Of a DNA stretch of 64,000 bases, positions 21,010 to 57,362 are shown piece after piece. The notes under the pieces were generated by a model, which was given only the letters and a program-made list of their open reading frames with translations, made no database searches and had not been told where the DNA came from. The number at the start of each line of letters is the position of its first letter. Within the stretch, counting starts at the first letter, position 1. Source of the DNA: Bryobacterales bacterium (lineage in GTDB: Bacteria; Acidobacteriota; Terriglobia; Bryobacterales; UBA6623); NCBI GenBank assembly GCA_022823865.1, contig JAJEHF010000140.1, positions 5,435 through 69,434 of the forward strand, in the 5' to 3' direction. The position numbers and the translations under genes were made by a program.

Positions 21010-21086
21010 GCGTAGATTCTAGCCGCAGTAGAGCCGAGAACCCGTAGCCAGAGGTGACATGCCACTGGGATTGGCGTACGCCGACA

Positions 21087-22532
21087 CTAGTTCGTCAGGC
21101 GGTACATCTGTAGCCGGCTTTGGGGCTTCTCGGGCATTGTGCGTTCGATCCTTCCGTCGGCAACGAGAAGCCTGATCACCTTGTTGAGCTGGCCGGATAC
21201 CCTCTTTTGCCCTAGGCTTCTGGAGAGATCCGCTTTCGACATTGGTCCATCCGCCAGTTGCCGAAGCACTCTCTGCGCCAGTGACTCTGGCTGTGACTCT
21301 GGCTGTGACTCTGGCCGCCGCTGTTCGTCGCCCCAAGAGTCAGAAACGGGATCGCCAGGCTTCCGAGGAGCATCTCGGCGTACTCCGGCCGTCGCCTGAG
21401 CCGCGCTGTCGGGCCGGCGTTCATCACCGGCCCCGATGAACACGAACTCCAGCCGCAAGCCGCCCGGCTCCAGCCCCCATTGTGGAGCGGCCGTGCCCGT
21501 AGCTCGGCACGCTCTGACGATATCGGCGACCCCCCGTCCCCAAGCCTCGATCATGCCGGCACGAAAGAATGCGTTAGCTATGTTCGGGTTCTGCGGTGCG
21601 GAAGCGTGTGTTGCCATGAGTTCTTCAAGCGTCCAGCCAGGAGGCAATGCTCCCGGGTTCCACAGTGCGATCCGGTCGTCGTATACCCGGATCTGAATCG
21701 GTGCCGGATTGCTGTAATCGCGGTGAACGACTGCGTTCATCACGGCTTCGCGTAGCGCAGAGCCAGGCGCCGGCGGAGTCTCGCGCCGGTAGATGCCCTC
21801 GTAAGAGATTCTTGCCTTCGAGTACTTTGTTCGAAGCAGGTCCACGACGCGGTCCACCTGGACGAACAGGTTGCCCTCGATGACGTCTTGGTATGCGAGG
21901 TCGGCCTCCGCTCTGAAGTAACCGATCTTCACGAATGCGCCAGCGAAGAACCGCGCAGGGTCTGGATGAAACAGCAGGATTGCTGCCCGCCGCAGATACT
22001 CGCCCTCCCGCAGGCGGAGCATTTCGATCAGATTACTATCGGATTCGTTTAGCGCGTCGGGAGGAAGACGGCCGCTGGCGATTCCACGCCGACGATACTC
22101 GTCCAGAGTTCTGCCATCCAGATCCGTCATCCCGACCCCGGGCATCGGCGCATCGTCCCAGGTGCGGCCGTGCCTGCGGAGCAGGAACCGGTTCAGCGCG
22201 GCCCCCCGCAAGACCTGCTTGGTGCTGCCGCTGCGATAGTGGTATTCGCCCTTGTAGCTGATTGGATTGGGGTAGGGATCGACCCGGATCTCGAGGTACT
22301 CTCCGCCCTCCTCGGACTTGAGATTCACGTCCACCACAACGCCTAGCAGGGATTGCGCCTTGTTGGGTATGTCCTCCAGCAGTCTCAGCGGATCTTTCAC
22401 GCCGACGATCTCGCCCCGGTCGTCCTTGCCGATCTCCAACACACCGCCCTGAGCGTTGGCGAACCCGCATATCCACTTCAGATACTCGTCCCTCCACGAC
22501 GATTTCCACTCGAGATTCTGTGCTTCACTCAT
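21087..22532 (-). CDS. AlbA_2 (Schlafen-like, 'divergent AAA') + HATPase_c_4 + C-terminal wHTH protein (RecG-C-terminal-like putative regulator/nucleic-acid binder)
   Basis: N-terminus is EAQNLEWKSSWRDEYLKWICGFANAQGGVLEIGKDD.GEIVGV (AlbA_2). The central part has REAVMNAVVHRDY...IQIRVYDDRIALWNPG (HATPase_c_4). An acidic/(ESQP)3 linker follows, then the tail ...LSRSLGQKRVSGQLNKVIRLLVADGRIERTMPEKPQSRLQMYRLT, typical of this family. Confidence 0.75.
   Translation of the reverse strand: MSEAQNLEWKSSWRDEYLKWICGFANAQGGVLEIGKDDRGEIVGVKDPLRLLEDIPNKAQSLLGVVVDVNLKSEEGGEYLEIRVDPYPNPISYKGEYHYRSGSTKQVLRGAALNRFLLRRHGRTWDDAPMPGVGMTDLDGRTLDEYRRRGIASGRLPPDALNESDSNLIEMLRLREGEYLRRAAILLFHPDPARFFAGAFVKIGYFRAEADLAYQDVIEGNLFVQVDRVVDLLRTKYSKARISYEGIYRRETPPAPGSALREAVMNAVVHRDYSNPAPIQIRVYDDRIALWNPGALPPGWTLEELMATHASAPQNPNIANAFFRAGMIEAWGRGVADIVRACRATGTAAPQWGLEPGGLRLEFVFIGAGDERRPDSAAQATAGVRRDAPRKPGDPVSDSWGDEQRRPESQPESQPESLAQRVLRQLADGPMSKADLSRSLGQKRVSGQLNKVIRLLVADGRIERTMPEKPQSRLQMYRLTN
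21281..21316 (-). repeat. 3 x 12-bp in-frame tandem repeat (GTGACTCTGGCT/C) encoding (PESQ)3 in the linker of the AlbA_2 protein
   Basis: Read directly. Units lie at 21281-21292, 21293-21304 and 21305-21316, and the last unit differs by one base. Translated on the minus strand this gives RPESQPESQPESL. Confidence 0.9.
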
Positions 22533-22977
22533 GAGTCCTTCATCAGCTGTTTAGCTCGCCCAGAGCGGGACTGACGACATGACAAGAACTGGCGCCCATC
22601 TGCATGTTGAGTCGTGCCGTGCCGAGTTCCCGCTGGAACGGAAGCCTGATCCCATCGTACTCGTGCCCCCTTGAGGGTGAATCGGTCGGCGCGCACGCGG
22701 CTTACCTGATCAGCCGGTATAGGTCAGATCGGCATCTGTGGTTGCCAGTGCGGAGTGTACACGCTGAGCTATGCCTTAGCCCTGTGCGCCTCTGTGGACC
22801 CTAGCGTCTTCATCGGTACGATTCGGGGGCCGTGCAGGGAACTTGTGCTAGTTGAGCCCGACGAGAGATTCCGAAGGCGGCTGGTACCATGATCTTCCGC
22901 TCCCCGGGCGAGGTAGGCTCGGACACGCGGATTCTTCGGGGTACTCAACCCGTACCCTGACCGAAGCCGCCCAAGTG

Positions 22978-24465
22978 ATGTCGATCGCCCTGACCAGCCG
23001 GAGCCATCCGCTTCAGATAAAGGACGTTAGCCCAGGTGATGGCTCCGGCCGAATCGGCATCACCCTATGTCCTGGCAAGAAGGACCCTCGCGGGTGGAGC
23101 GGGGATTGGAACCGTGACCTAAGTCTGGATCTCGATGAGATTCAGCGCTGGGGAGCGACGGCAGTCATCAGCTTGATCACCGACGAGGAGATGGATTGCT
23201 TGAAGGTGGGACGGCTTCGCGACGCCGTTGAGGAACGGCACATGGAGTGGTGGCACCTACCGATCCCTGACATGAATCCGCCCAGATCTGACTTCGAGCG
23301 TGGTTGGAAGGTTGCTGGCGAGGCCATCCGTGACCGATTGCGCATGGGATTTGACATGCTTGTGCACTGCAAGGGCGGCTTGGGCCGCGCCGGCACGGTC
23401 GCAGCTCGTTTGCTCGTCGAATTGGGAGAGAGCCCCGAATACGCGATCCGCACCGTGCGAACGGCGCGACCGGGCGCCATTCAAACCAAGGGCCAGCGAC
23501 GCCACGTAGAGCACTGTGTCCCTCAGGCGTCACCTGCTCCATCGATAACCCAAGAGTGCATTCGGGATCGGGCAATGGGGGCCTTGCTTGGACTTGCGGT
23601 GGGCGATGCTCTCGGAACGACGCTCGAGTTCGAGAAGCGTGACTGTAGGCCAAGAGTCGTTGACATCACTGGGGGAGGACCCTTCGATTTGAGGCCTGGC
23701 TGCTGGACCGACGACACGGCAATGGCGCTGGCTCTCGCGGACAGCTTGCTGGCGTCGGAGAGCCTTTACTGCCGGGATCTGATGGAGCGATTCGTGGCGT
23801 GGTGGCGGACCGGCGAATACTCTCCCACCGGGAACTGCTTCGACATCGGGATCACGACTCGGAACGCGCTTGAGCGCTACCTCCACACTGGCGACCCCCT
23901 CGCCGGTTCGACCGATCCAAGCACTGCGGGCAATGGCTCGCTGATGCGGCTCGCTCCGGTGGCCCTACGCTTCTGGAACGACCGCGATAGCCTCGACCAT
24001 GCTGCTGCGCAACAGTCCCGGACGACACATGCGGCCGAAGAAGCGGTGGATGGCTGCCGGGCGTTCGCCGACCTGCTTGCAGATGCGATCTCCGGCAAGC
24101 CGCGCCGGGACATCCTCGCTCCGAGATCATTCCAAGGCGCTCCGGCCATAGCCAAAATCGTCGGCGGCAGCTGGCGCGGATGCGCAAGGAAGGAGATCCG
24201 GTCCAGTGGCTACGTCGTCCACACGCTCGAGGCCGCCATGTGGTCGGTCGCGCGCACTGGCGACTTTCGCAACGCCGTCCTGCTAGCGGCCAACTTGGCT
24301 GACGACGCCGATACGGTAGCGGCAGTGACGGGCCAATTGGCCGGTGCTATCTATGGACTGTCCGGCATTCCGACGGACTGGCTGGAGCGGATCGCGTGGA
24401 AGGACCGGCTTCTCGACACGGCAGAGCGGCTGGCGGAACTCGGCCACAAGGAAGTGCAGGCATGA
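22978..24465 (+). CDS. Fusion protein: Cys-based (CX5R) dual-specificity/KAP-like phosphatase + ADP-ribosylglycohydrolase
   Basis: The start was moved to ATG 22978 (the track ORF begins at TTG 22852). The N-domain has the P-loop HCKGGLGRAGT. The C-domain has GALLGLAVGDALGTTLEF and ANLADDADTVAAVTGQLAGAIYG (ARH/DraG-family metal-binding motifs). The reading frame is continuous, with no stop or frameshift between the domains. Confidence 0.8.
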   Translation: MSIALTSRSHPLQIKDVSPGDGSGRIGITLCPGKKDPRGWSGDWNRDLSLDLDEIQRWGATAVISLITDEEMDCLKVGRLRDAVEERHMEWWHLPIPDMNPPRSDFERGWKVAGEAIRDRLRMGFDMLVHCKGGLGRAGTVAARLLVELGESPEYAIRTVRTARPGAIQTKGQRRHVEHCVPQASPAPSITQECIRDRAMGALLGLAVGDALGTTLEFEKRDCRPRVVDITGGGPFDLRPGCWTDDTAMALALADSLLASESLYCRDLMERFVAWWRTGEYSPTGNCFDIGITTRNALERYLHTGDPLAGSTDPSTAGNGSLMRLAPVALRFWNDRDSLDHAAAQQSRTTHAAEEAVDGCRAFADLLADAISGKPRRDILAPRSFQGAPAIAKIVGGSWRGCARKEIRSSGYVVHTLEAAMWSVARTGDFRNAVLLAANLADDADTVAAVTGQLAGAIYGLSGIPTDWLERIAWKDRLLDTAERLAELGHKEVQA

Positions 24466-25359
24466 CTTCGAACGCGGGCGCATTCCAACCAGCGGATGGC
24501 TAGCCCGCCGAGAGACGAGCCGAGTCGGGAGATCCGAACGTAGCGGCCACACGCGCAGCGCTGAGCCTCTATGGGAACGACAGCACCTGGCAATCCGAAA
24601 CGGTTTGGCGAACCGTAGATCGTGCCAACCCGCCCCGGGCTGGTCGAGGAAGGTTCTTTCTCGGGACCAGCTCTTCCCGGTGCACCAGCCCCCTGTTGAC
24701 GACGCACCCCCTCAAGCGCTGGGGTCTGACGTCACACTTGCTCCCCGGATTTTTCGAGAAGCGTCAAATGCCCGTCTGGCGCTGTTCGCGGACCTCACCT
24801 CGGCACAGGCGCTGCGGGCCCAAAGTTGCGCCCGTACTTCCCCTCGTTCGCCTACGTGGTGCTGCGGACCCTGCTGCGGGGAGGCTCGCATGCGGGCGGC
24901 GGGCGAGGTCACGGTGGGTTTGGCACGATGGGTCTGGAGCTGCTTGGGATCAGTGCGCGGACCGCGCGGCTTTCGTTCGATGCGGGATTCCGGGACGCGG
25001 GTCTGTTCCTGCAGGTGCTGGCTCGCTTCCAGAGGCTTGCATTGCGCTGCTGGCTGCTACCAGTGAGATGACCGTGTCGAGTTCCGCAGGAACTCGCCGG
25101 GATTCCTGCGCCTGGCGAGCGGGTGGCCCCGCCGGACAAGCGGCAACGGCCTCGGACCCGACGGCTCTGACCAAGCGTGCCGCCGGCTCTGCGAGCCCCG
25201 TTTTCCGACGACCTCCAGTCACTGAAAGCGGATCCAACGCCTCGGAGACTACAACTCGTGAGAATCTCGGACTAGCCCCGCGTGCTGAGCAGTCTGTCAC
25301 TGATTGCTGACGTCCGCCCGTCGGCTGGAGCTGCGATTCGGAGACGCAACGAAACAGCC

Positions 25360-26307
25360 TCAGGTCCAAGAATCGGGCAGTGTCCACCGCGTAGGGCCGG
25401 GCGCTCCCGAGGCGGCAGCTGCAACGATGGGAGACAGGAACTCGCTTATCGAAACCGCGATGTCTGCCAGCGAGGCTGGCACGTGATCTTGCTGGAGGCC
25501 GTTACGGAACGCTGCCCATTGAGTCTGCTTGACATCGACAAACGGCAAGCTGAACTCCTCGATGACCACCGGAATTGCGGTCCTCCGGCGCTCGAACGTG
25601 AGCCTGATGGCCTCGGTCAGTTCGGGACCACTGAACTCGAACTGTCGAGAAAGCAGCCAGATGTCGTAGAAGTCCTTCATGCAACTGTTCAGTTGGCCCA
25701 GCCTGACGATGGCCTCGAGCTTTTCCGCGATGGTGCTCTCGCGGCTGTAGCAGAGCAATCGCGGGGCAGGGAATTCCAGCATCGTGGGGAAATCCGCGGG
25801 TTTCGGCTCGGGATACACCGCGTCGCCGAAACCCACGTCGATCTGCATATGGATTCGCGCCGTGCCGAGCGCCCCTAGGAACCGAATTCTCAGACCCTCG
25901 TGCTCGGTACTGCCGGTGATGGGCTCGGTCCGGACGGTGGTCGGATCGAAAGCCAAGCCGTCTGGTTGCACGTCCACCCGGAGAATGTCCCGGATCTGCG
26001 CGATGATGACCGCATCCTCGTTGCGCGTCTTGCCAAGCAGGTCGATATCTCCAGTCGGACGCAAGTCCCGTGCGTGCCACACCGATAGCATGAGTGCGCC
26101 TTTGAGGATGAAGCGGTCGGCATGTTCGGACTGGGACAGGCGGAAGAGGAACCGCTCCATGGCAAAGTACTGCAGCAGTTCGCTGAACGGTCGTTTCTCG
26201 CTTCTAGCCCGGTTGAGGAGACGCTGCCGGACGGACGCAGGTACGTTCCGGAGGGTCGTCAGAGGGTGGCCTCCAGATATGGGCGCATCAACTTCTCCAC
26301 CCGACAA
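25360..26307 (-). CDS. abiEii: AbiEii/AbiGii-family nucleotidyltransferase toxin (type IV TA)
   Basis: NVPASVRQRLLNRARSEKRPFSELLQYFAMERFLFRLSQSEHADRFILKGALML is the characteristic N-terminus. The Pol-beta NTase motif is RPTGDIDLLG, and MQIDVGFGD lies downstream. The start is uncertain: TTG at 26307 overlaps the upstream gene by 49 nt, and no in-frame ATG occurs before residue 50. Confidence 0.85.
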   Translation of the reverse strand: MSGGEVDAPISGGHPLTTLRNVPASVRQRLLNRARSEKRPFSELLQYFAMERFLFRLSQSEHADRFILKGALMLSVWHARDLRPTGDIDLLGKTRNEDAVIIAQIRDILRVDVQPDGLAFDPTTVRTEPITGSTEHEGLRIRFLGALGTARIHMQIDVGFGDAVYPEPKPADFPTMLEFPAPRLLCYSRESTIAEKLEAIVRLGQLNSCMKDFYDIWLLSRQFEFSGPELTEAIRLTFERRRTAIPVVIEEFSLPFVDVKQTQWAAFRNGLQQDHVPASLADIAVSISEFLSPIVAAAASGAPGPTRWTLPDSWT

Positions 26308-26852
26308 GCCTTGGCGCAGTGGAGCAGGGCGCTGACGTCAAAGCCGTTTCGTTGGCGGTGGAGCCGCAGTGCCTCCAGCACCACGTCCATGCCGATCCGG
26401 TTGCGGAACTTGAAGCAATCCGCCAAGGTCTTCTCGGGGCTGTAGACTCTGACGGTCGCCCCATCGATCTGGTGGGTTTCGATTCCGGTTTCGTAGCTCG
26501 CCTTCGAGAATCGGTGGGCTCGGACCGGCGGAAAGTCGAGCGACGGCAAGCGCGAGTCACGTGGCACTGCCAGAGCAACATGGTGTGGGACCTGGGTTGT
26601 GATGCCGTGATAGGCCAGGGCAGAGACGAGACAGATGACAGCTCTTGGAAAACGCAGGCTTGCCGTGACTAGGTCAGGCTCGCTGAGCGGCGGCAGCGCG
26701 AGCAGCCGGTAGATGCCCCGGCTGACTGGCTCGACGACACCCCGATTCCTCAGCGCATAGAGCATGTAGGGCGTGATCCCGTGAGCGACAGCCTCGCCCA
26801 TGCGAAGCTGCCCGCCGTGTTCTCGAAAGATCGCTTCGGCACGCGCTTTCAT
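26259..26852 (-). CDS. abiEi: AbiEi-family antitoxin / transcriptional regulator (type IV TA)
   Basis: The start was moved to ATG 26852 (MKARAEAIFREHGGQLRMGEAVAHGITPYMLYALRNRGVVEPVSRGIYRL, an AbiEi_4-type wHTH). At about 197 aa it has the typical length. It lies directly upstream of abiEii on the same strand. Confidence 0.8.
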   Translation of the reverse strand: MKARAEAIFREHGGQLRMGEAVAHGITPYMLYALRNRGVVEPVSRGIYRLLALPPLSEPDLVTASLRFPRAVICLVSALAYHGITTQVPHHVALAVPRDSRLPSLDFPPVRAHRFSKASYETGIETHQIDGATVRVYSPEKTLADCFKFRNRIGMDVVLEALRLHRQRNGFDVSALLHCAKACRVEKLMRPYLEATL

Positions 26853-26896
26853 TGCAGGTTTCAAAAAATCGTCACCACTTAATAACAACTAATAAT

Positions 26897-26925
26897 AATA
26901 TAGCTGAAATGTGCCGAAGTGGCAA
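26897..26925 (-). promoter_or_regulatory. Sigma70-like promoter of the abiE operon in an AT-rich patch
   Basis: On the minus strand this reads TTGCCA (26925-26920), a 17-nt spacer, then TATATT (26902-26897). It lies about 45 nt upstream of ATG 26852. The surrounding 26878-26910 is strikingly AT-rich for this genome. It contains TTATTA-N4-TTATTA direct repeats just downstream of the -10 element, which may be operators. Confidence 0.5.
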
Positions 26926-27196
26926 GACCGTGGGGCGATGGCCGCTCGGAGGTCTCGACCCCGCTTGGGAGGCGGTGAATGACTGCCCCGCAACACTCGA
27001 CCATGATCTGGCAGGCGGCGTTTAGCATTAAAGCCTCGCTGAATGCACCGCCACTTAGCACGCCAGCTGAGGTTTGCTCAGAGGGATCCGGGAAGTCCCC
27101 CGGTTTCGTTGGGTGCCGGAGTTTGCGGCGGCTGATCGGAAACGCCGCGCGAGGCCGTGCCGGTCCCGCAATGATTGAAATAGCCGTCCTACGACC

Positions 27197-27793
27197 TCAA
27201 TAGTGCAGCAGGAGCCAGACAGCGCAGGACACTAGCACGAGGCCCATCGCACAGTTGAAGGTTCGCAGGCGCCAGCCTTGCTTGAGCGCCTTGCCGATCC
27301 CTACGCCAAACACGGTCCACGTGTAAGACGAGGCCAGGCCGGAGACCAGAAAGGCGCTGGCAGCCAGCAGGGCGTTGGGAACCGCGACCTCGCCAGTCGC
27401 GTAGGCCGCTGTCAGGGAGATTGCGAGGGCCCATGCTGCGGGGTTCACCCACTGGAACAGGATCGCCTCGAAGAACGTGAGCGGTCTGCTCCGGTCGTTT
27501 CCCTCGGTTGCATGGGCTGTTGCAATACGCCACGCGAACCAAGCGAGCATGGCGCACCCGAGCCACTTGAGGATCTTGACAATGACCGGGAATGGCTCGA
27601 TCGCTGGCCCGAGGCCGAGAGCCACCAGCGTCAGCATGATCGGAAAGCCGATAGCGACCCCCATCGCATGTGGCACTGACCGGCGCCACCCATAATTGGC
27701 CCCGGAGGCGCTGAGCATGGCGTTGTTCGGGCCGGGAGTCCAGGTCATGGAGACGGCCAACCCGGCGAGTGCGGTCGCAGTTTCGAGATTCAT
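27197..27793 (-). CDS. LysE/RhtB-family amino-acid (small-molecule) exporter
   Basis: 198 aa with about six TM helices. The N-terminus ...TPGPNNAMLSASGANYGWRRSVPHAMGVAIG matches the LysE/RhtB signature (PGPN). Confidence 0.8.
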   Translation of the reverse strand: MNLETATALAGLAVSMTWTPGPNNAMLSASGANYGWRRSVPHAMGVAIGFPIMLTLVALGLGPAIEPFPVIVKILKWLGCAMLAWFAWRIATAHATEGNDRSRPLTFFEAILFQWVNPAAWALAISLTAAYATGEVAVPNALLAASAFLVSGLASSYTWTVFGVGIGKALKQGWRLRTFNCAMGLVLVSCAVWLLLHY

Positions 27794-28020
27794 GCCAGGC
27801 CCCGTGGAGACGGTCTCGACCGGCTAGAGCAGATCCGGCTCCTGGGACTGGATAGTGGGCCAGCGAAGCTTGATCTGGATCTACGCTTCCCTCAACATAC
27901 CGCCTCGAGAATCGGGCCGGCAGCTACAAGGACTGACTCCGCCATGTCGAACGGTTGCTTGGGTCCCGGTCGCACGGCTGGTCATCAAGCGCGCTCTCAG
28001 CTGCGCGGGCGAGACACCGC

Positions 28021-29874
28021 TTAGGGTGCAAGGGACACTGGAGCCGCAGTCTCAGGGGTCTCGGCGCGTTCCGGCTGGCCGCCGGAACGTACGGGACTCT
28101 CCTCTGCCATTGAGCCAGTGCCCTCGTTCACAATGACTTGGAGCGGGTTCGACGGCAGTGCATCTTCGTCGCGAACGCGGGAGGTCCCATAGATGTGGAA
28201 CGGCTGCGCATCGTTGATTCGGGCCACTTCCTCGAGCGTCTGCTTGCGATGCTTGGGGATCAGGCGAGGGGGCTCCGCCTTGGCGTTCGGCTCCCGGTCC
28301 CAGTTCAGATGCAGATGCGGCGACAGCTTCTCTTCGGGTTCGCCCGCGAAGCGCATCGCCGGCCACTTGAACGACGGCCCGTGAACGTGTTTTCCGCGAA
28401 GGTGGTAGAACACCTTGGTGCCGATCCTGAAGTACTTTCTCGACCGCTCGCGCATTTCGCCGAAATCGCGGCTCTGCTTCCAGGCGGTCATGATGAATTC
28501 CCATTGAAGCTGGGTGAGCTCGCGGGCCTTCATCGCATGCCCGGAGGCCATGCGTGTGTCCTCCAGCGGCGTGAAGATCGACGGCACGTACAGGACCTTG
28601 TTGTTCTTCAACCGATGCAGGAGCTCTAGCGACTGCTTGATGTCGTCATCGGTCTCGTTCGGCAAGCCCACGATGAACGTGTACACCGGAAACCAGTTGT
28701 TGTCGTTGAGGATGTTCGTGCCTTCGACAACGATTTCCTGCCAGTCCTGGATGTCGAACGGGAGCGCCTTGCCCGACATGGTGAGCGCCGCCAGGCGCGG
28801 CGAACCGGTCTCGATGCCGATCAGCGGGGCCAGGAATCGCTTGTCGGGATGGGTCGAGTTCCGATTCTGCAGTGCACTCTTGCCGAGCAGCACGTTCGAC
28901 AGATCGCGGACAAGGCCGGGGTTGACCACCGCGGGCGCGATCGTGGCGTGCGAGACCGGGAGATAGTCCACGCCCGGTTCCTCGGCGATCGAGCCGTAGA
29001 AATTCAGCAACTGGTTGGGATTGGGCACATAGAACGGGGCGGATGCCCCGTAGATGAAGATGTCTTCCGAGACCGGGAAAATGATGCGACCGCCGTTGGA
29101 CGTGTTCGCCCTCACGGCCGACAGGACATCGGGCATGGGCACCGAGATGCGTGTTTCCAGGGTGGGGGAGCAAAACGCGCACTGCCTGCCGCAGCCCCGG
29201 GTCATTTCGACGATGCCGTATGTGGATCGTCGCCGCGGGATGACCAAGTTCTCGATGGACGGCTCCGGCGCGCTGACGGTCGGGGGCAGGTCGCGGCCGT
29301 CCTCGGCCATCTGGAACACCTCCAAGATTCTCGATTCCGCCCGCCCATTGATCACGCAATCGATCCCGAGCCTCTCGCGGGAAGAGGTCTTGTCGATCTG
29401 CCATGCGCCGGCCCCTCCGACGATGACCTTGGGCCTGTGCCTCCGAATCGCGGGGTGCAGGTACACCCGCTCCGACTCGGCCGCGTTGATGGGGCGCGCC
29501 GAGGATCCGAAGATATTGGAGTACACGCCGGTAGAGAACGCCGTTCCGATCGGGTTGTGCGCACCGACGCCGACTGCCACGGTGCGGCGTCCGACGAAGG
29601 TATCCAGATCGTCGGGATAGCAGACCACCACATCGTCGTCCGCGTATGCCCGCCGCAGCACCTCTTCCGCGACGCGCACACCGTAGGTCATCACCTTGGC
29701 GCTGCCGTCCGGGTTGCGAGGCTGATCGAATTTGTTCTTGTAAAAGAATCGCGGAACGAATTGCGCCGGTGCAGACGCGTACATCATCTGCTTCCACGGG
29801 CTAAACGCCTGCTCCGTGCTCTCGGTATCCGGAGCCGTTAGGACGAATTTCACACCGTCGCTATGGAATGCCAT
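28021..29874 (-). CDS. Radical SAM enzyme with Rossmann/B12-binding-like N-terminal domain and long C-terminal extension
   Basis: The CX3CX2C cluster motif is MTRGCGRQCAFCSP. Upstream is a roughly 220-aa domain (VAVGVGAHNPIG...KVIVGGAGAW) resembling the cobalamin-binding-like domain of class B rSAMs. The GIETGSPR and FIVGLPNETDDD motifs belong to the rSAM barrel. The last ~50 aa of a roughly 170-aa C-terminal tail are low-complexity. The subfamily was not recognised. Confidence 0.8.
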   Translation of the reverse strand: MAFHSDGVKFVLTAPDTESTEQAFSPWKQMMYASAPAQFVPRFFYKNKFDQPRNPDGSAKVMTYGVRVAEEVLRRAYADDDVVVCYPDDLDTFVGRRTVAVGVGAHNPIGTAFSTGVYSNIFGSSARPINAAESERVYLHPAIRRHRPKVIVGGAGAWQIDKTSSRERLGIDCVINGRAESRILEVFQMAEDGRDLPPTVSAPEPSIENLVIPRRRSTYGIVEMTRGCGRQCAFCSPTLETRISVPMPDVLSAVRANTSNGGRIIFPVSEDIFIYGASAPFYVPNPNQLLNFYGSIAEEPGVDYLPVSHATIAPAVVNPGLVRDLSNVLLGKSALQNRNSTHPDKRFLAPLIGIETGSPRLAALTMSGKALPFDIQDWQEIVVEGTNILNDNNWFPVYTFIVGLPNETDDDIKQSLELLHRLKNNKVLYVPSIFTPLEDTRMASGHAMKARELTQLQWEFIMTAWKQSRDFGEMRERSRKYFRIGTKVFYHLRGKHVHGPSFKWPAMRFAGEPEEKLSPHLHLNWDREPNAKAEPPRLIPKHRKQTLEEVARINDAQPFHIYGTSRVRDEDALPSNPLQVIVNEGTGSMAEESPVRSGGQPERAETPETAAPVSLAP

Positions 29875-40777: not shown

Positions 40778-42235
40778 CTAGGCACGAAGCAGCTTCCGGA
40801 CAACGCGTCCCTGTACGTCGGTGAGCCGGAACTTCCGCCCGGCATGCTCGTATGTGAGGTGCTCGTGATCAAACCCAAGGCAGTGGAGGATCGTGGCCTG
40901 CAAGTCGTTGACGTGGATGGGGTCTCTCACGATCTCAAGGCCGAACTCGTCGGTTTCTCCGACGCTCTGTCCCCCTCGGACGCCGCCGCCGGCCATCCAC
41001 ATGCTAAACGCGTTGGGGTGGTGGTCACGGCCGGCCGCCTCATCCAGGCGATTGATCTGCCCCATCGGAGTCCGCCCGAATTCCCCTCCCCAAACCACAA
41101 GGGTCGTGTCGAGTAAACCCCTCTGCTTCAGATCCTTGATCAGCGTCGCCACGGGCTGATCCGTGATCCGGCAATTCTCGGCCAGTTGCTTGTCGAGCTT
41201 CACGTGGTCGTCCCAATCGCCGTGCGTCAGCATGATGAACCGCACGCCCCGCTCAACCATTCGACGGGCGAGAAGGCAATTGACGGCGTACGGGTGGGTC
41301 GGCTCCTGATTGACGCCGTATGCGTCGAGGATGTGCTTGGGTTCGCCGGAAAAATCAAGCAAATCGGGTGCCGCGCTCTGCAAGCGGAATGCCAGTTCGT
41401 AGGAAGCGATACGAGATGCAATCTCGTCATCACCCGTAGCGCGGCGGCGCTTCTGGTTGATCCACCGTATCGCGTCGAGCCGCGCCCTTTGCAAATCGCG
41501 ATTCATCGTGCCTTCCGGTGGCGACAGATACAGGACTGGATCGCCGCTGCCGCGAAACCGGGTCCCCTGCAATGAGGAGGGCAGGAATCCACTTGACCAA
41601 GCGTTGGAGCCCGAACTGGGCCCCTTGCCGGACCCCAGGACGATGAAACCCGGCAGATCCTGCGACTCGCTGCCCAGTCCGTACACGACCCATGACCCCA
41701 TGGAAGGACGACCCAGCAACGTAGCGCCAGTCAGCAGCAATAGCTCGCCCGGATCATGATTGAAAGCGTCCGTGTGCATCGAGTGGACCATGCAGATCTC
41801 GTCGGCGCAGGATGCGGTGTGCGGAAGCAGGTCGGAGAACTGGATGCCGGACTCGCCGTAGGGCCTGAATGTGCGGGGACTCGCCATCACGGCAGAGGTT
41901 GGCTTGACGAACGCCAGCTTGAGGTCCCTGGTCCTCGACAGGGGAAGCGGGGAGCCATCCCACCTCTGGAGTTCGGGCTTGGGGGAGAACAGGTCGAGCT
42001 GACTTGGGCCTCCAGACATCAGCAGGAAGATGATGTTGGTCGCTGAACCCGGAAAGTGGGGTGGCCTTGGCGTGAGCGGGTCGACGCGCGCCAGCGCCTG
42101 CGGCGCAGTCCGGCCCTCCGAGCGGAGGAGGTGGCCTAGAGCGGCCGCGCCCAGGCCCCATGTAGAGCGCTCCAGGAATCGGCGCCGGCCCTGGCCCTGC
42201 GCGGCTTGGTCAGACTGCGTTCCGAGAATCGTCAT
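40778..42235 (-). CDS. DUF1501 domain protein (Tat-exported)
   Basis: The start was moved to ATG 42235 (MTILGTQSDQAAQGQGRRRFLERSTWGLGAAAL, a Tat leader). It lies 14 nt after the stop of the DUF1553 gene. It is colinear with 120-1532 and 49321-50754. Confidence 0.85.
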   Translation of the reverse strand: MTILGTQSDQAAQGQGRRRFLERSTWGLGAAALGHLLRSEGRTAPQALARVDPLTPRPPHFPGSATNIIFLLMSGGPSQLDLFSPKPELQRWDGSPLPLSRTRDLKLAFVKPTSAVMASPRTFRPYGESGIQFSDLLPHTASCADEICMVHSMHTDAFNHDPGELLLLTGATLLGRPSMGSWVVYGLGSESQDLPGFIVLGSGKGPSSGSNAWSSGFLPSSLQGTRFRGSGDPVLYLSPPEGTMNRDLQRARLDAIRWINQKRRRATGDDEIASRIASYELAFRLQSAAPDLLDFSGEPKHILDAYGVNQEPTHPYAVNCLLARRMVERGVRFIMLTHGDWDDHVKLDKQLAENCRITDQPVATLIKDLKQRGLLDTTLVVWGGEFGRTPMGQINRLDEAAGRDHHPNAFSMWMAGGGVRGGQSVGETDEFGLEIVRDPIHVNDLQATILHCLGFDHEHLTYEHAGRKFRLTDVQGRVVRKLLRA

Positions 42236-42249
42236 CAGTGGCTGGTGCG

Positions 42250-44844: not shown

Positions 44845-45229
44845 TGTGGCGGCGGGTCTCGCTCTTATAGCGTGCCCGATCATTGTATCGGGCGGGCAGT
44901 TTGCTGGCCGGAAATCTGCAGCGCTCTGCGGAAAGGCGCGTTGTGCCAGATATTGCGGATCGCACCCAATGGTCGCTTTCGGTTGGCAGCAGCCGTGTCG
45001 GGGGCTAGCGGCAACGAGCTGGCCTGAAGCAGTCCGGGAAGCTCCGGCCTCGGGAGATCGTGGCACTCCCGCTCCCACCGCCTCTGCCGGGGAGCCGGCG
45101 GGCTGTGCCCCTCTCACTGATATCATGCAGCCGCGGCGCTGGCATCGGTAGCGGGTTCCCCCGGCACCCGCCAACCGCACGGCGAAACCGGCAGGGGCTG
45201 ACGAGGCTGAGCAAGCGCAGGCTGGAGCG

Positions 45230-46288
45230 ATGAGCATTCTGAGCCGACGACAGTTCATGCAGTCCCAAGGGGCCGCCCTCGCGCCGGCCGTGGCGTCGGG
45301 GGCTTACGTCAAGCCCGAGCATTTCACGGTGGACTGCCAGAGCCACATTTTCGTGCCGGAACTAATCGCCTACATGGAAAAGCGCAAGGAGCCGCCCTAT
45401 GCCTACAGGCGGGACGGCGGAACCTACGTGGTCGTCGGCGAGTGGCACAGGCGCCTCAGGGAGCGGCACGCGGACATCGAAGCCAAGCTGGCAGACATGG
45501 ACGAAGCCGGGATCTCGCTGACGGCCCTCAGCATCAACGACCCGGGCCCGGAGCTGTTTGGAGCCGATGGCCCGCACGTTGCGAGGATGGTGAACGACTA
45601 CATCAGCGAACTCGCGACGAAGCACTCGGATCGGCTCTTTGGGTTGATCGTCCTGCCGCTTCAAGACGTTGACGCATCCTTGAAGGAACTTGATCGATGC
45701 GTAACTGACAAAGGGATGAAGGGCGTGCTCCTGTACTCGAATCTCGACGGATCGTTCCCCGACGAGGACCGCTACCGGCCCCTGTTCGAGCACGTCCAGC
45801 GTCTTGACATCCCGGTCCTGTTGCACCCAGCCTATCCCGTCACGTACGACGCAACCGTTGGCCGAAACCTCGTCGCCGGGCTGGGGCTGATGTTTGACAC
45901 AACCATCGCCCTGGCGCGCCTCATCCTTTCGGGGATACTCGACGAATACCCCGACCTGAAGCTGGTCTGCCCGCATGTCGGCGGAACGCTGCCGTACCTG
46001 ATCGGCCGGCTGGACCACCAAACGCAGGTGCTCAAGCGAGGCGCCGAAAACATCACGAAGCCCCCGAGCGAGTACCTCCGCAACATATACTTGGACGCGG
46101 TGTCTCCGATTCCTATGGCCATTCAGTACGGGATCGATTTCGTTGGTGCTGAACGGATGCTCTATTCGAGCGACCATCCATGGGTAGACCCCAAGGTGAT
46201 TGCGGACTGCGTGCGCAGCCTTGATCTGCCTGACGAGGACCAGCTCAGGATCTTCGGGGGGAACGCCAAGAAACTGTTCAAGCTATGA
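45230..46288 (+). CDS. Amidohydrolase-2 family protein with Tat-like leader
   Basis: MSILSRRQFMQSQGAALAPAVASGA leader, then VDCQSHIFVPEL..., ...LLHPAYP..., ...CPHVGGTLPYLIGRLD... and ...YSSDHPW. It is a paralogue of 32296-33360. Confidence 0.8.
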   Translation: MSILSRRQFMQSQGAALAPAVASGAYVKPEHFTVDCQSHIFVPELIAYMEKRKEPPYAYRRDGGTYVVVGEWHRRLRERHADIEAKLADMDEAGISLTALSINDPGPELFGADGPHVARMVNDYISELATKHSDRLFGLIVLPLQDVDASLKELDRCVTDKGMKGVLLYSNLDGSFPDEDRYRPLFEHVQRLDIPVLLHPAYPVTYDATVGRNLVAGLGLMFDTTIALARLILSGILDEYPDLKLVCPHVGGTLPYLIGRLDHQTQVLKRGAENITKPPSEYLRNIYLDAVSPIPMAIQYGIDFVGAERMLYSSDHPWVDPKVIADCVRSLDLPDEDQLRIFGGNAKKLFKL

Positions 46289-50754: not shown

Positions 50755-50774
50755 GGTTGCCCCCTCGGTCGCGG

Positions 50775-57019: not shown

Positions 57020-57362
57020 CCGGCGACCCCTGGCAGGGGACGGACGGCTACCGACGCACTTGCGCGGCCCTCCGCGCGGCCCATGATCGGAGAAATGCCA
57101 GCCGAGCCCGGCAGGTAGCTGGTGGCGTCGGGCTCCCGCCCTTAGAGGTAGCGGCCGGTCCTGTCCAGTTCCGCTCCCTGTGTGATCGGATTGAAGGCAC
57201 GGGAATAGCGTGCCGCCTCTGCCTCGCATACTGCCACCTCCTGCCAGTTGGCGACATTCGGAGCCTGCCCGGCATCTGCAGCCTGCCGCGTACTGGCGAG
57301 CCGGCGGCCAGACGCTGCGCTCTTGGCGCCAGGCGGCACGGCCGCCCGCCGACGCCAAGCTG

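What the first reader, a model, noticed from the sequence alone, without database searches (positions are those of the whole stretch)
21087..26925. Compact accessory or defence-like islet with four parts
- **Seen:** a ~5.8-kb block differs in character from the flanking transport and catabolic genes.
  - It starts with a 481-aa AlbA_2 + HATPase_c_4 + wHTH protein on the minus strand.
  - A 445-bp divergent intergenic region follows, then the phosphatase-ARH fusion on the plus strand.
  - Next come about 0.9 kb with no convincing ORF.
  - An abiEi-abiEii operon on the minus strand closes the block. Its promoter lies in the only strongly AT-rich patch of the window.
- **Established:** AbiE is an abortive-infection/type IV TA system. 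Defence genes cluster in islands. Schlafen/AlbA_2-type and ARH domains recur in conflict systems.
- **Inference:** the AlbA_2 protein and the phosphatase-ARH fusion, transcribed divergently, may form a two-gene sensor/effector or toxin/reversal module that has not been described.
- **Caveat:** I found no integrase, tRNA or flanking direct repeats, so mobility is unproven.
Basis: partly seen in the sequence, partly recalled or inferred. Interest (0 to 1): 0.7.

Follow-up and report, generated by a model that had tools for sequence, protein, structure and literature searches.

The report
Three unrelated accessory genes, not one islet
The four parts are real, but they are three independent units sitting in a variable spot of an acidobacterial chromosome, each from a family already described, and the proposed new two-gene module is not supported.

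Summary
All four parts are in the sequence as described, and Pfam and PADLOC confirm the domain calls. The window is a Bryobacterales-type (Acidobacteriota) metagenome scaffold.

Comparison with seven syntenic relatives shows the block is not one unit:
- **AlbA_2 block (about 21028-22847).** It is present or absent independently of the other parts.
- **AbiE cassette (about 24501-27097).** It also comes and goes independently. It includes the 0.9-kb stretch with no ORF and the AT-richer promoter patch.
- **Phosphatase-ARH gene.** It stays in place in all seven. All four presence/absence combinations of the other two blocks occur.

Three results argue against a two-gene module:
- None of 29 independent phosphatase+ARH loci has an AlbA_2-family gene next to it. 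The recurrent partner is an NrtR-like Nudix-wHTH regulator.
- Three of seven AlbA_2 homologue contexts lie inside restriction-modification operons, and none lies beside a phosphatase-ARH gene.
- The "divergent intergenic region" contains a decayed AbiEii gene fragment.

The phosphatase-ARH fusion was already described computationally as the core of "ARG-centric" systems (Iyer et al. 2022). The Schlafen-ATPase-DNA-binding family linked to restriction-modification was described in 2026. AbiE is ordinary.

Verdict: a defence-flavoured variable spot made of known kinds, and the proposed module is not supported. The phosphatase-ARH gene evolves faster than its flanks, which is mildly interesting.

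The parts
21028..22847 (.). Variable block 1. It holds the AlbA_2 gene, its upstream DNA and the AbiEii relic. In L003, L005 and L006 it is replaced by a homologous filler of 38-75 bp.
   Evidence: blastn of the window against relatives; junction sequences.
21087..22532 (-). Schlafen/AlbA_2 + HATPase_c_4 (GHKL-like) + C-terminal winged-helix protein, 481 aa. It is a solitary copy of a family that often sits inside restriction-modification operons.
   Evidence: Pfam. Partial PADLOC hits to pAgo-associated models. PDB 3LMM is the only structural relative by sequence. Homologues of 55-80% identity occur across phyla. Contexts. The N-terminal motif E3-x4-E8-x-K10 is kept in 88-90% of 120 homologues.
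22567..22690 (-). Decayed fragment of an AbiEii-family gene, directly upstream of the AlbA_2 gene and in the same orientation.
   Evidence: A 71-nt repeat, 22593-22663 versus 25836-25906, at 73% identity. tblastn of AbiEii residues 63-71 and 135-166 hits two different frames, E 4e-5. The fragment is also present in L004 and L007.
22848..22980 (+). Upstream region of the phosphatase-ARH gene, conserved in relatives with and without the AlbA_2 block. It is presumed to hold the gene's own promoter and leader.
   Evidence: The alignments resume at 22848-22882 in the relatives that lack AlbA_2. Indels there are not multiples of three.
22981..24465 (+). Phosphatase-ARH fusion protein, 494 aa. The cysteine phosphatase (PTP/DSP) domain spans about 23137-23499. 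The DraG/Tri1-like ADP-ribosylarginine hydrolase domain spans about 23578-24375.
   Evidence: Pfam. NCBIfam Tri1 model, E 1.3e-111, 373 bits, below the 490-bit cut-off. PDB 6DRE, E 6.8e-81. The phosphatase motif HCxGGxGRAGT with D97, and the ARH residues D209, T243-D244-D245-T246 and D442/D444/T445, are invariant in 35 homologues. R136 is 90% or more conserved. dN/dS.
24501..27097 (.). Variable block 2, the AbiE cassette. It is absent from L004, L005 and L007, where about 15 bp take its place. It includes the stretch with no ORF and the promoter patch.
   Evidence: blastn; junctions without a target-site duplication.
24466..25359 (.). Stretch with no conserved ORF, downstream of AbiEii. From 24501 onward it belongs to the AbiE cassette. 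It is probably decayed or non-coding DNA.
   Evidence: No Pfam or NCBIfam match. No Rfam match. No fold z-score signal. No plasmid match. The 145-aa minus-strand ORF is frameshifted in L003 and has only two weak hits among 1.84 billion representative proteins.
25360..26307 (-). AbiEii nucleotidyltransferase toxin. This is the longest ORF and the true start is uncertain. The motifs LKGA and GDIDL are present.
   Evidence: Pfam E 1e-45; PADLOC E 9e-94; plasmid homologues annotated as AbiEii with an adjacent AbiEi.
26259..26852 (-). AbiEi antitoxin and transcriptional regulator. The likely start is ATG 26852 (MKARAEA). The longest ORF runs to 26888.
   Evidence: Pfam AbiEi_4 and AbiEi_1; PADLOC E 2.4e-72, covering residues 15-208; sequence.
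26897..26925 (-). Sigma-70-like promoter match, TTGCCA-17-TATATT, followed by an AT-rich leader before the AbiEi start.
   Evidence: Consensus scan, 10 of 12 matches; sequence. This is a consensus match only.

Best explanation
The interval between the DUF5060 gene and the LysE gene is a long-standing variable spot in a Bryobacterales-type chromosome. Three unrelated units lie side by side there.

**(1) The AlbA_2 gene.** It is an old resident: a solitary Schlafen/AlbA_2-GHKL-wHTH gene with a decayed AbiEii fragment upstream. The family is normally embedded between the methylase/specificity genes and the restriction gene of restriction-modification operons. I infer that it is a nucleic-acid-binding sensor or nuclease accessory of nuclease-based defence. 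Here it is orphaned, and it is being lost in some relatives.

**(2) The phosphatase-ARH fusion.** It is a stand-alone gene with its own upstream region. It is the core of the "ARG-centric" systems predicted by Iyer et al. 2022.
- Inferred mechanism of the ARH half: the DraG/Tri1-like domain removes ADP-ribose from arginine residues of host proteins modified by a foreign ADP-ribosyltransferase, from a phage or a competitor's toxin.
- Inferred mechanism of the phosphatase half: the fused cysteine phosphatase processes the released or phosphorylated ADP-ribose moiety.

**(3) The AbiE cassette.** It is a 2.6-kb cassette that spread recently. Following the known AbiE model, AbiEi represses its own promoter and neutralises the AbiEii nucleotidyltransferase toxin.

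**Shown:** the domain content, the independent presence and absence, the neighbourhoods of the homologues, and the evolutionary rates.
**Inferred:** all biochemical activities and any role in defence.
For: **Independence of the units**
- tblastn and blastn against seven syntenic relatives give all four presence/absence combinations, with sharp boundaries at 21028/22847 and 24501/27097.
- AlbA_2 dS tracks its flanks (0.19 against 0.14 in L004; 0.33 against 0.36 in L007). This fits an old resident. L008 keeps only a 3' remnant and L121 holds a frameshifted copy.
- AbiE is found only in the window, L002 and L003. Its dS is 0.05-0.07, which is below the value for DUF5060 (0.18). It lies in a tract, 24.2-28.0 kb, that is 95-99% identical to L003.

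**AlbA_2 family**
- Homologues of 64-80% identity sit inside type III-like operons (methylase-AlbA_2-Res) and a type I operon (hsdM-hsdS-AlbA_2-hsdR) with 4-48 bp spacing or overlap.
- PMC13462974 reports Schlafen-ATPase-DNA-binding proteins tightly associated with restriction-modification, BREX and type I CRISPR systems.

**Phosphatase-ARH fusion**
- More than 8000 homologous clusters exist, typically about 493 aa.
- Catalytic residues of both domains are invariant.
- The best family and structure matches are Tri1 and DraG.
- In 4 independent loci an NrtR-like Nudix-wHTH gene ends 8-77 bp upstream. Serine recombinase/DUF2924 and ParB-methylase/DUF5681 genes are also nearby. This matches PMC9503650 section 3.8.
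- dN is 0.09-0.11 against 0.01-0.05 in most flanking genes, and omega is 0.19-0.30 against 0.08-0.19. The phosphatase domain is the faster half.

**AbiE**
- Strong PADLOC and Pfam hits, the gene order AbiEi then AbiEii with an overlap, and a promoter-like site.
Against: - The seven syntenic loci were fetched through the phosphatase-ARH gene itself, so its constancy there is partly built in.
- Three loci anchored on more distant DUF5060 orthologues (82-85% identity) do not have the phosphatase-ARH gene adjacent. It is therefore not universally fixed at this site.
- In one further genome (L028) an AlbA_2 homologue of 74% identity and a phosphatase-ARH gene lie about 7 kb apart and head to head. 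This could be a trace of an old linkage.
- Iyer et al. note that ARG-centric cores gain and lose variable modules between close relatives. Variable presence alone therefore does not exclude a functional link.
- No activity has been tested for any part.
- The excess of substitutions at one codon phase in 24951-25359 (11 of 15) hints at some constraint in the stretch with no ORF. This explanation does not account for it.
Confidence: 0.75

Rival explanations
1. The divergently transcribed AlbA_2 gene and the phosphatase-ARH gene form a two-gene sensor/effector or toxin/reversal module. For example, the AlbA_2-wHTH protein could take the place of the Nudix- or WYL-HTH regulator found in other ARG-centric systems.
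For: - The head-to-head adjacency is kept in the window, L002, L004 and L007.
- L028 has both genes head to head about 7 kb apart.
- The AlbA_2 protein ends in a winged helix and its homologues are annotated as transcriptional regulators.
- ARG-centric systems are reported to swap regulators and to gain or lose modules.
Against: - The four adjacent cases belong to one syntenic lineage, so they count as one event.
- The phosphatase-ARH gene is retained under purifying selection in L003, L005, L006 and L008 without an intact AlbA_2 gene.
- None of 29 independent phosphatase+ARH loci has an adjacent AlbA_2-family gene. Twenty of them have at least 1.5 kb of upstream sequence.
- None of 7 AlbA_2 homologue contexts has an adjacent phosphatase-ARH gene.
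- The DNA between the two genes carries an AbiEii relic. The phosphatase-ARH upstream 130 bp lies outside the AlbA_2 block.
Confidence: 0.07
2. The whole 5.8-kb block is one mobile defence island, acquired as a unit.
For: - It contains defence-type genes.
- GC3 is slightly lower (0.71-0.74) than in the flanking genes (0.75-0.82).
Against: - There is no tRNA, and no integrase, transposase or flanking repeat was found.
- The parts are present and absent independently, with separate boundaries.
- The three units have different divergence histories.
- Overall GC is within the range of the window.
Confidence: 0.03
3. The phosphatase-ARH gene is not a conflict gene. It is a housekeeping regulatory enzyme that reverses endogenous arginine ADP-ribosylation in the manner of DraG, or that cleans up ADP-ribose metabolites.
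For: - Its position is conserved in seven relatives and it is under purifying selection, with omega 0.19-0.30.
- Here it has no linked regulator, chaperone or nuclease.
- No PADLOC model matches it.
- It is 70-90% identical across many genomes.
Against: - No ADP-ribosyltransferase partner was found among the window's main ORFs.
- It evolves faster than most flanking genes, about two- to eight-fold in dN by gene and relative.
- In other lineages it sits beside serine recombinases, ParB-methylases and NrtR-type regulators, that is, on mobile or conflict-type DNA.
- It is not adjacent to the DUF5060 orthologue in three more distant relatives.
Confidence: 0.15

Closest known systems
ARG-centric systems predicted to counter viral ADP-ribosylation (Iyer, Burroughs, Anantharaman, Aravind 2022, Viruses 14:1977, PMC9503650, section 3.8)
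   Same: - An ADP-ribosylglycohydrolase domain with no linked ADP-ribosyltransferase.
- It is coupled in the same polypeptide to a phosphatase of the rhodanese-phosphatase superfamily.
- It evolves fast relative to its neighbours.
- Homologous loci carry the reported Nudix-wHTH (NrtR-like) regulator.
   Different: Only the bare core is present here. There is no Nudix or WYL regulator, chaperone, nuclease, Macro or NADAR gene. The published function is itself a prediction and has not been tested.
Tri1, the ADP-ribosylarginine hydrolase immunity protein of the Serratia Tre1 type VI secretion toxin (PDB 6DRE; NCBIfam NF041672)
   Same: It is the closest characterised relative of the ARH domain (E 1.3e-111 to the model; E 6.8e-81 to 6DRE). 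The metal-binding residues are conserved.
   Different: - The score of 373 bits is below the 490-bit equivalog cut-off.
- The match starts at model position 54, so the N-terminal extension that occludes Tre1 is missing and a phosphatase domain takes its place.
- No Tre1-like toxin or type VI secretion genes were found in the window.
Prokaryotic Schlafen-ATPase-DNA-binding proteins associated with restriction-modification, BREX and type I CRISPR systems (Nat Commun 2026, PMC13462974)
   Same: - AlbA_2/Schlafen N-terminal domain, an ATPase-like domain and a DNA-binding C-terminus.
- Close homologues (64-80% identity) sit inside restriction-modification operons.
- An E-x4-E-x-K motif lies where the characterised Cash protein has its E-x4-D-x-K catalytic triad.
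   Different: The copy here is solitary, with no methylase or restriction gene nearby. The characterised member, Cash, uses a Csx15 sensor and cyclic tetra-adenylate, which are absent here. No function has been shown for the ATPase-containing clusters.
AbiE type IV toxin-antitoxin / abortive infection system (AbiEi-AbiEii)
   Same: - A two-gene operon with the antitoxin gene first.
- AbiEi has a winged-helix N-terminal domain and a C-terminal domain.
- AbiEii is a DUF1814 nucleotidyltransferase.
- A promoter-like site lies upstream.
   Different: Nothing notable, apart from about 0.86 kb of DNA with no ORF that travels with the cassette downstream of AbiEii.
TrlG of the Photorhabdus temperature-restriction locus (bioRxiv 10.1101/2020.06.02.129163)
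   Same: The same AlbA_2 + HATPase_c_4 architecture, and one of the few members with a phenotype.
   Different: It comes from a different lineage and locus. Sequence relatedness to the window protein was not tested.

Membership tests
AbiE (type IV TA / abortive infection) | AbiEi antitoxin with an N-terminal winged-helix domain and a C-terminal domain | tested here: met
   Pfam AbiEi_4 E 6.4e-10 and AbiEi_1 E 7.5e-4. PADLOC AbiEi E 2.4e-72 over residues 15-208.
AbiE (type IV TA / abortive infection) | AbiEii DUF1814 nucleotidyltransferase toxin | tested here: met
   Pfam AbiEii E 1e-45. PADLOC E 9e-94, nearly full length. The sequence shows the LKGA and GDIDL motifs.
AbiE (type IV TA / abortive infection) | Bicistronic operon with the antitoxin gene first, abutting or overlapping the toxin gene | tested here: met
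   26259-26888(-) precedes 25360-26307(-), and the longest ORFs overlap by 49 nt. Plasmid homologues show the same pairing.
AbiE (type IV TA / abortive infection) | Toxicity neutralised by AbiEi; a phage-abortive phenotype | not testable with these tools
   This needs expression experiments.
ARG-centric anti-ADP-ribosylation system (PMC9503650) | ARG/ARH domain with an intact binuclear metal site | tested here: met
   ADP_ribosyl_GH E 6.1e-71. D209, T243-D244-D245-T246 and D442/D444/T445 are invariant in 35 homologues.
ARG-centric anti-ADP-ribosylation system (PMC9503650) | No genomically coupled ADP-ribosyltransferase or sirtuin | tested here: met
   Pfam scans of the window's main ORFs found none. 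Small ORFs were not all scanned.
ARG-centric anti-ADP-ribosylation system (PMC9503650) | Coupled phosphatase, most often of the rhodanese-phosphatase superfamily, fused or adjacent | tested here: met
   PTP-SAK E 5.4e-10 in the same ORF. The motif HCxGGxGRAGT and D97 are invariant, with R136 at 90% or more. Twenty-five of the 29 independent loci are fused in the same domain order.
ARG-centric anti-ADP-ribosylation system (PMC9503650) | Nudix- or WYL-HTH regulator. It is reported in about 42% of systems, so it is frequent but not obligatory. | tested here: not met
   There is none in the window. An NrtR-like Nudix-wHTH gene is present directly upstream in L037, L039, L042 and L050.
ARG-centric anti-ADP-ribosylation system (PMC9503650) | Removal of virus- or toxin-made ADP-ribose from host macromolecules | not testable with these tools
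   This is a prediction in the source paper as well.
Tri1 (NCBIfam NF041672 equivalog) | Score above the curated equivalog cut-off | tested here: not met
   372.8 bits against a cut-off of 490.
Tri1 (NCBIfam NF041672 equivalog) | N-terminal extension that occludes the Tre1 active site, and an adjacent Tre1 toxin | tested here: not met
   The match covers model positions 54-358 only. The N-terminus is a phosphatase domain. No ADP-ribosyltransferase or type VI secretion genes were found in the window.
Restriction-modification-linked Schlafen-ATPase-DNA-binding family (PMC13462974) | AlbA_2/Schlafen domain + ATPase-like domain + DNA-binding domain | tested here: met
   Pfam finds three domains. 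120 homologues share the architecture.
Restriction-modification-linked Schlafen-ATPase-DNA-binding family (PMC13462974) | Tight embedding in a nuclease-based defence operon (restriction-modification, BREX, type I CRISPR) | tested here: not met
   The copy in the window is solitary, with only an AbiEii relic upstream. The feature is met for homologues in L029, L030/L031 and L116/L117.
Restriction-modification-linked Schlafen-ATPase-DNA-binding family (PMC13462974) | Schlafen catalytic triad (E-x4-D-x-K in Cash) | tested here: inconclusive
   E3-x4-E8-x-K10 is present and 88-90% conserved in the family. Equivalence to the Cash triad was judged by motif spacing only, not by a structural alignment.
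Mobile genomic island | Integrase or transposase, tRNA target, flanking direct repeats | tested here: not met
   No tRNA. No flanking repeats or target-site duplication. No recombinase among the window's main ORFs.

The most novel reading that the evidence does not exclude
In this acidobacterial lineage the Schlafen/AlbA_2-GHKL-wHTH protein has been recruited as the sensor or regulator of the phosphatase-ARH core. It would replace the Nudix- or WYL-HTH regulators seen elsewhere. That would link a Schlafen-type nucleic-acid sensor to reversal of ADP-ribosylation. The head-to-head pairing in four syntenic genomes, and the 7-kb head-to-head proximity in L028, would be traces of that link.
Probability: 0.06. 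Interest if true: 0.6.

Novelty: new member of a known kind. Interest (0 to 1): 0.27.

Why it matters
It corrects a tempting guilt-by-association reading. Adjacency of two conflict-type genes within one lineage is not evidence for a module.

The locus does give a clean natural experiment. The same chromosomal site occurs with and without the AlbA_2 gene, and with and without AbiE.

It also adds a stand-alone, fast-evolving example of the phosphatase-ARH core. The predicted role of that family, undoing ADP-ribosylation by foreign enzymes, has not been tested as far as the papers searched here show, and the family is very large (more than 8000 clusters).

One practical point: the gene calls for this same scaffold (L001) and for L002 in the public collection searched here shorten the fusion to a 296-aa ARH-only protein. 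Domain-based surveys that rely on such calls would miss the fused phosphatase.

Tried and rejected
- **tRNA and known RNA families.** ARAGORN found no tRNA. Rfam found nothing at gathering thresholds and only a chance H19 hit at the E-value threshold.
- **Boundary repeats.** The repeat search and inspection of the junctions found no target-site duplication or terminal inverted repeats at either block boundary.
- **The 0.9-kb stretch.**
  - Six candidate ORFs gave no Pfam match, and the four longest of them also gave no NCBIfam match.
  - blastn against plasmids found nothing.
  - RNA-fold z-scores on both strands were unremarkable.
  - An exhaustive HMMER search with the 145-aa minus-strand ORF gave only two weak hits. 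One was to a junk-like predicted protein rich in Arg, Ala and Pro.
  - That ORF is frameshifted in L003.
- **Cross-referencing contig lengths.** I tried to infer co-residence from contig lengths in the homologue lists. It is unreliable, because the lists give the longest contig of each cluster.
- **The ADP_ribosyl_GH gene near the DUF5060 orthologue in L121.** It first looked like a third AlbA_2/ARH co-location. It gives no tblastn match to the fusion at E 1e-4, so it appears to be an unrelated ARH.
- **Viral contigs.** All 80 loci kept match the ARH part of the query and none covers the fusion's N-terminal part.
- **Structure prediction.** It was not run, because sequence evidence sufficed for the verdict.

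Full report
**1. What is in the sequence**

The four parts exist at the stated coordinates.

- ORF 21087-22532(-), 481 aa, carries SLFN_AlbA_2, HATPase_c_4 and a Fic-like_C winged helix.
- ORF 22852-24465(+) carries a cysteine phosphatase domain (PTP-SAK, E 5.4e-10) and an ADP-ribosylglycohydrolase domain (E 6.1e-71). Both are in one frame with no stop.
  - Homologues are typically about 493 aa.
  - The DNA upstream of ATG 22981 carries indels that are not multiples of three in relatives.
  - The start is therefore most likely ATG 22981, and the intergenic region is 448 bp.
- 26259-26888(-) is AbiEi and 25360-26307(-) is AbiEii by Pfam and by PADLOC (E 2.4e-72 and 9e-94).
  - The likely AbiEi start is ATG 26852.
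  - It is preceded by a TTGCCA-17-TATATT match and an AT-rich leader of about 40 nt.
- The window has no tRNA and no Rfam family.
- Pfam scans of its main ORFs found transport, catabolic and repair genes. They found no integrase, transposase, ADP-ribosyltransferase or type VI secretion genes.

The claimed compositional contrast is weak.
- GC per kb is 0.605-0.661 inside the block and 0.60-0.70 across the window.
- GC3 is 0.71-0.74 in the four genes and 0.75-0.82 in their neighbours.
- The "AT-rich patch" is 54-55% GC in 200-nt windows.

**2. Where it comes from**

The AlbA_2 protein is encoded with identical sequence on an ENA metagenome scaffold. That scaffold (locus L001) is 100% identical to window 11087-32532. 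It is also encoded on a 1.76-Mb contig (locus L002) that is 98% identical. The related genomes fetched are labelled Bryobacterales or Terriglobia, which are Acidobacteriota.

In the public gene calls for L001 and L002 the fusion is shortened to a 296-aa ARH-only protein that starts at the internal ATG 23575. This is an annotation artefact. The phosphatase domain is in frame, and dozens of homologues share it.

**3. The block is three units, not one**

I ran tblastn and blastn of the window against loci fetched through the phosphatase-ARH protein. They show the conserved order DUF5060 | [AlbA_2] | phosphatase-ARH | [AbiE] | [LysE] | [radical SAM] | GyrI-like, where the bracketed genes are variable.

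| Locus | AlbA_2 block | AbiE cassette |
|---|---|---|
| Window, L002 | present | present |
| L004, L007 | present | absent |
| L003 | absent | present |
| L005, L006 | absent | absent |
| L008 | 3' remnant only | absent |

- **AlbA_2 block.** It spans about 21028-22847. In L003, L005 and L006 it is replaced by a homologous filler of 38-75 bp.
- **AbiE block.** It spans about 24501-27097. In L004, L005 and L007 it is replaced by about 15 bp. It contains the 0.86-kb stretch with no ORF and the promoter patch.
- **Junctions.** Neither junction shows a target-site duplication.
- **Other variable genes.** LysE is missing in L006 and L008. The radical-SAM gene is missing in L007 and partly deleted in L003.

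The whole interval is therefore a hotspot of gain and loss.

These loci were fetched through the phosphatase-ARH gene, so its constancy is partly built in. I therefore looked up three more distant DUF5060 orthologues (82-85% identity) as an unbiased anchor.
- None has the phosphatase-ARH gene adjacent.
- L121 has a frameshifted AlbA_2 homologue about 7 kb away. It also has VapBC-like and AbiEi_2 genes next to DUF5060.
- The genome of L120 has the phosphatase-ARH gene tens of kb away.

**4. Different histories for the three units**

Pairwise dN and dS were computed for each gene.

- **AlbA_2.** It has diverged in step with its flanks. dS is 0.19 against 0.14 for DUF5060 in L004, and 0.33 against 0.36 in L007. 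This fits an old resident that is decaying in some lineages.
- **AbiE.** dS is 0.05-0.07 against L003. That is lower than DUF5060 (0.18). AbiE lies in a tract, 24.2-28.0 kb, that is 95-99% identical to L003. This fits recent spread by recombination.
- **Phosphatase-ARH.** It is the most divergent gene of the neighbourhood.
  - dN is 0.09-0.11, against 0.01-0.05 in most flanking genes.
  - dS is about twice the flanks in the near relatives.
  - Omega is 0.19-0.30, against 0.08-0.19.
  - The phosphatase half is faster (dN 0.11-0.17, omega about 0.3) than the ARH half (dN 0.06-0.08).
  - Identity to L003 switches sharply from 65-92% to 95-99% at about 24200, inside the gene. This looks like a recombination breakpoint.

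**5. The "divergent intergenic region"**

A 71-nt repeat links 22593-22663 to the middle of the AbiEii gene at 73% identity. tblastn finds two AbiEii fragments on the minus strand at 22567-22690. They correspond to residues 63-71 and 135-166 and lie in different frames (E 4e-5). The same relic is present in L004 and L007.

A decayed AbiEii-family gene therefore lies directly upstream of the AlbA_2 gene, inside the AlbA_2 block. Only the last 130 bp or so before the phosphatase-ARH start (22848-22980) are shared by the genomes that lack AlbA_2. The two genes thus need not share a control region.

**6. Test of the proposed two-gene module**

*From the phosphatase-ARH side.*
- The genome and metagenome scans gave 29 independent loci with phosphatase+ARH. 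Twenty-five are fused in the same domain order, two have the reverse order, one has a divergent neighbouring gene and one has a split match.
- Twenty of them have at least 1.5 kb of upstream sequence.
- I built an HMM from 120 AlbA_2-family homologues. It found no adjacent family member in any of these loci.
- The only nearby cases were L028, about 7 kb away, and L096, a distant relative about 6 kb from an ARH-only gene.
- The recurrent neighbour is an NrtR-like Nudix-wHTH gene. It ends 8-17 bp upstream and is co-oriented in L037, L039 and L050. In L042 it ends 77 bp upstream and is divergent.
- Serine recombinase/DUF2924 and ParB-methylase/DUF5681 genes are also nearby.

*From the AlbA_2 side.* Seven independent contexts of homologues of 64-80% identity were examined.
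- Two lie inside type III-like operons: SNF2 helicase, (DUF4391), methylase, AlbA_2, Res.
- One lies inside a type I operon, hsdM-hsdS-AlbA_2-hsdR, with 4-bp overlaps.
- The others are solitary, some of them beside toxin-antitoxin and insertion-sequence genes.
- None is adjacent to a phosphatase-ARH gene.

It is essentially met: outside the single syntenic lineage, the only co-location found is the loose 7-kb one in L028.

**7. What each part most likely does (inference)**

*Phosphatase-ARH.*
- The ARH domain is closest to Tri1 (NCBIfam NF041672, E 1.3e-111; PDB 6DRE, E 6.8e-81) and to DraG. Both remove ADP-ribose from arginine (PMC8120803).
- It is not a Tri1 equivalog. It scores 373 bits against a 490-bit cut-off. 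The match starts at model position 54, so the N-terminal extension that occludes Tre1 is replaced by the phosphatase domain.
- The residues expected for catalysis in both domains are invariant or nearly so in 35 homologues.
- Iyer et al. (PMC9503650, section 3.8) described this arrangement. They found ARG domains with no linked transferase, coupled in more than 55% of cases to a phosphatase that is fused or adjacent. About 42% of the systems have Nudix- or WYL-HTH regulators.
- They proposed that these systems undo virus-made ADP-ribosylation, and that the phosphatase processes the released ADP-ribose.
- The window gene is a bare core of that kind. Its faster evolution fits the conflict reading, but a housekeeping role cannot be excluded.

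*AlbA_2 protein.*
- A 2026 study (PMC13462974) showed that a CRISPR-associated prokaryotic Schlafen protein cleaves tRNA through an E-x4-D-x-K triad.
- The same study noted large clusters of Schlafen-ATPase-DNA-binding proteins tightly associated with restriction-modification, BREX and type I CRISPR systems.
- The window protein has E3-x4-E8-x-K10, and this motif is conserved in 88-90% of its family.
- I infer that it is an orphaned accessory of nuclease-based defence. Its activity is unknown.

*AbiE.* It is an ordinary pair. Plasmid homologues of 42-48% identity are annotated in the same way.

**8. The stretch with no ORF**

- 24466-25359 has no Pfam or NCBIfam match.
- It has no Rfam match.
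- It has no fold-stability signal.
- It has no plasmid match.
- The 145-aa minus-strand ORF that overlaps the AbiEii stop is frameshifted in L003.
- That ORF has only two weak hits among 1.84 billion representative proteins.
- The stretch is best read as decayed or non-coding DNA carried with the cassette.

One oddity remains. In 24951-25359, 11 of 15 substitutions relative to L003 fall in one codon phase. That phase has the lowest GC, which is the opposite of real genes in this genome.

**9. Verdict**

- **Observation.** It is largely confirmed, with a weaker compositional contrast than stated.
- **Interpretation.** It is partly supported. This is a defence-flavoured variable spot. It is not a single islet, and the evidence is against a new AlbA_2 + phosphatase-ARH module.
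- **Novelty.** Every part belongs to a family already described or predicted, so this is a new member of a known kind.
- **Interest.** It is modest. The points of interest are a natural presence/absence series at one site, a fast-evolving stand-alone phosphatase-ARH core, and an annotation pitfall.

Noticed in passing
window 22567-22690 (-): A decayed AbiEii-family gene fragment lies just upstream of the AlbA_2 gene. It is also present in L004 and L007, which lack the intact AbiE cassette. An AbiE-like system was therefore once linked to the AlbA_2 gene.
   Followed up: yes
window 22848-24200: The phosphatase-ARH gene is a divergence island. Identity to L003 is 65-92% here, against 95-99% from about 24200 onward and 94.6% in DUF5060. 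dN and dS are both raised, and the phosphatase half is faster than the ARH half. The sharp switch inside the gene looks like a recombination breakpoint.
   Followed up: partly
window 24951-25359: Eleven of 15 substitutions relative to L003 fall in one codon phase (coordinate mod 3 = 2). No ORF is conserved, and that phase has the lowest GC. This is unexplained.
   Followed up: partly
L001 and L002 gene calls; window 23575-24465: The gene calls for this same scaffold (L001) and for L002 in the public collection shorten the fusion to a 296-aa ARH-only protein. The in-frame phosphatase domain is left uncalled.
   Followed up: yes
window 27197-29874; loci L003, L006, L007, L008: The neighbouring LysE gene is deleted in L006 and L008. 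The radical-SAM gene is deleted in L007 and has an internal 1-kb deletion in L003. The instability reaches beyond the flagged block.
   Followed up: partly
L002 1-1884 versus window 57305-59188: In the 98%-identical relative, the AMP-binding/PP-binding/acyltransferase gene lies next to the GyrI-like gene. In the window it lies 27 kb away. This is a rearrangement or a large deletion between very close strains.
   Followed up: no
L121 10958-13635: A more distant relative carries a PIN-domain pair and an AbiEi_2 gene with a 194-aa partner directly beside the DUF5060 orthologue. Different toxin-antitoxin genes land at the same site.
   Followed up: no
L052, L106, L110: The two domains also occur in the reverse order (ARH then phosphatase), and as a phosphatase gene lying divergently beside an ARH gene. 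The domain partnership is conserved, but the fusion is not.
   Followed up: partly
L123-L202 (viral contigs): Two hundred and six viral stretches encode Tri1/DraG-like ARH homologues, many on contigs of more than 100 kb. None of the 80 loci kept covers the N-terminal part of the fusion.
   Followed up: no
window 21212-21260 (-): The linker before the winged helix of the AlbA_2 protein holds a short tandem peptide repeat (PESQPESQPES). Identity to relatives dips there.
   Followed up: no
window 120-1532, 40778-45258, 49321-53384: The window holds three DUF1501 genes. Two of them are paired with PSCyt1/PSCyt2/PSD1 genes. It also holds two large CarboxypepD_reg/OMP beta-barrel genes. These are repeated gene families typical of this lineage.
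   Followed up: no
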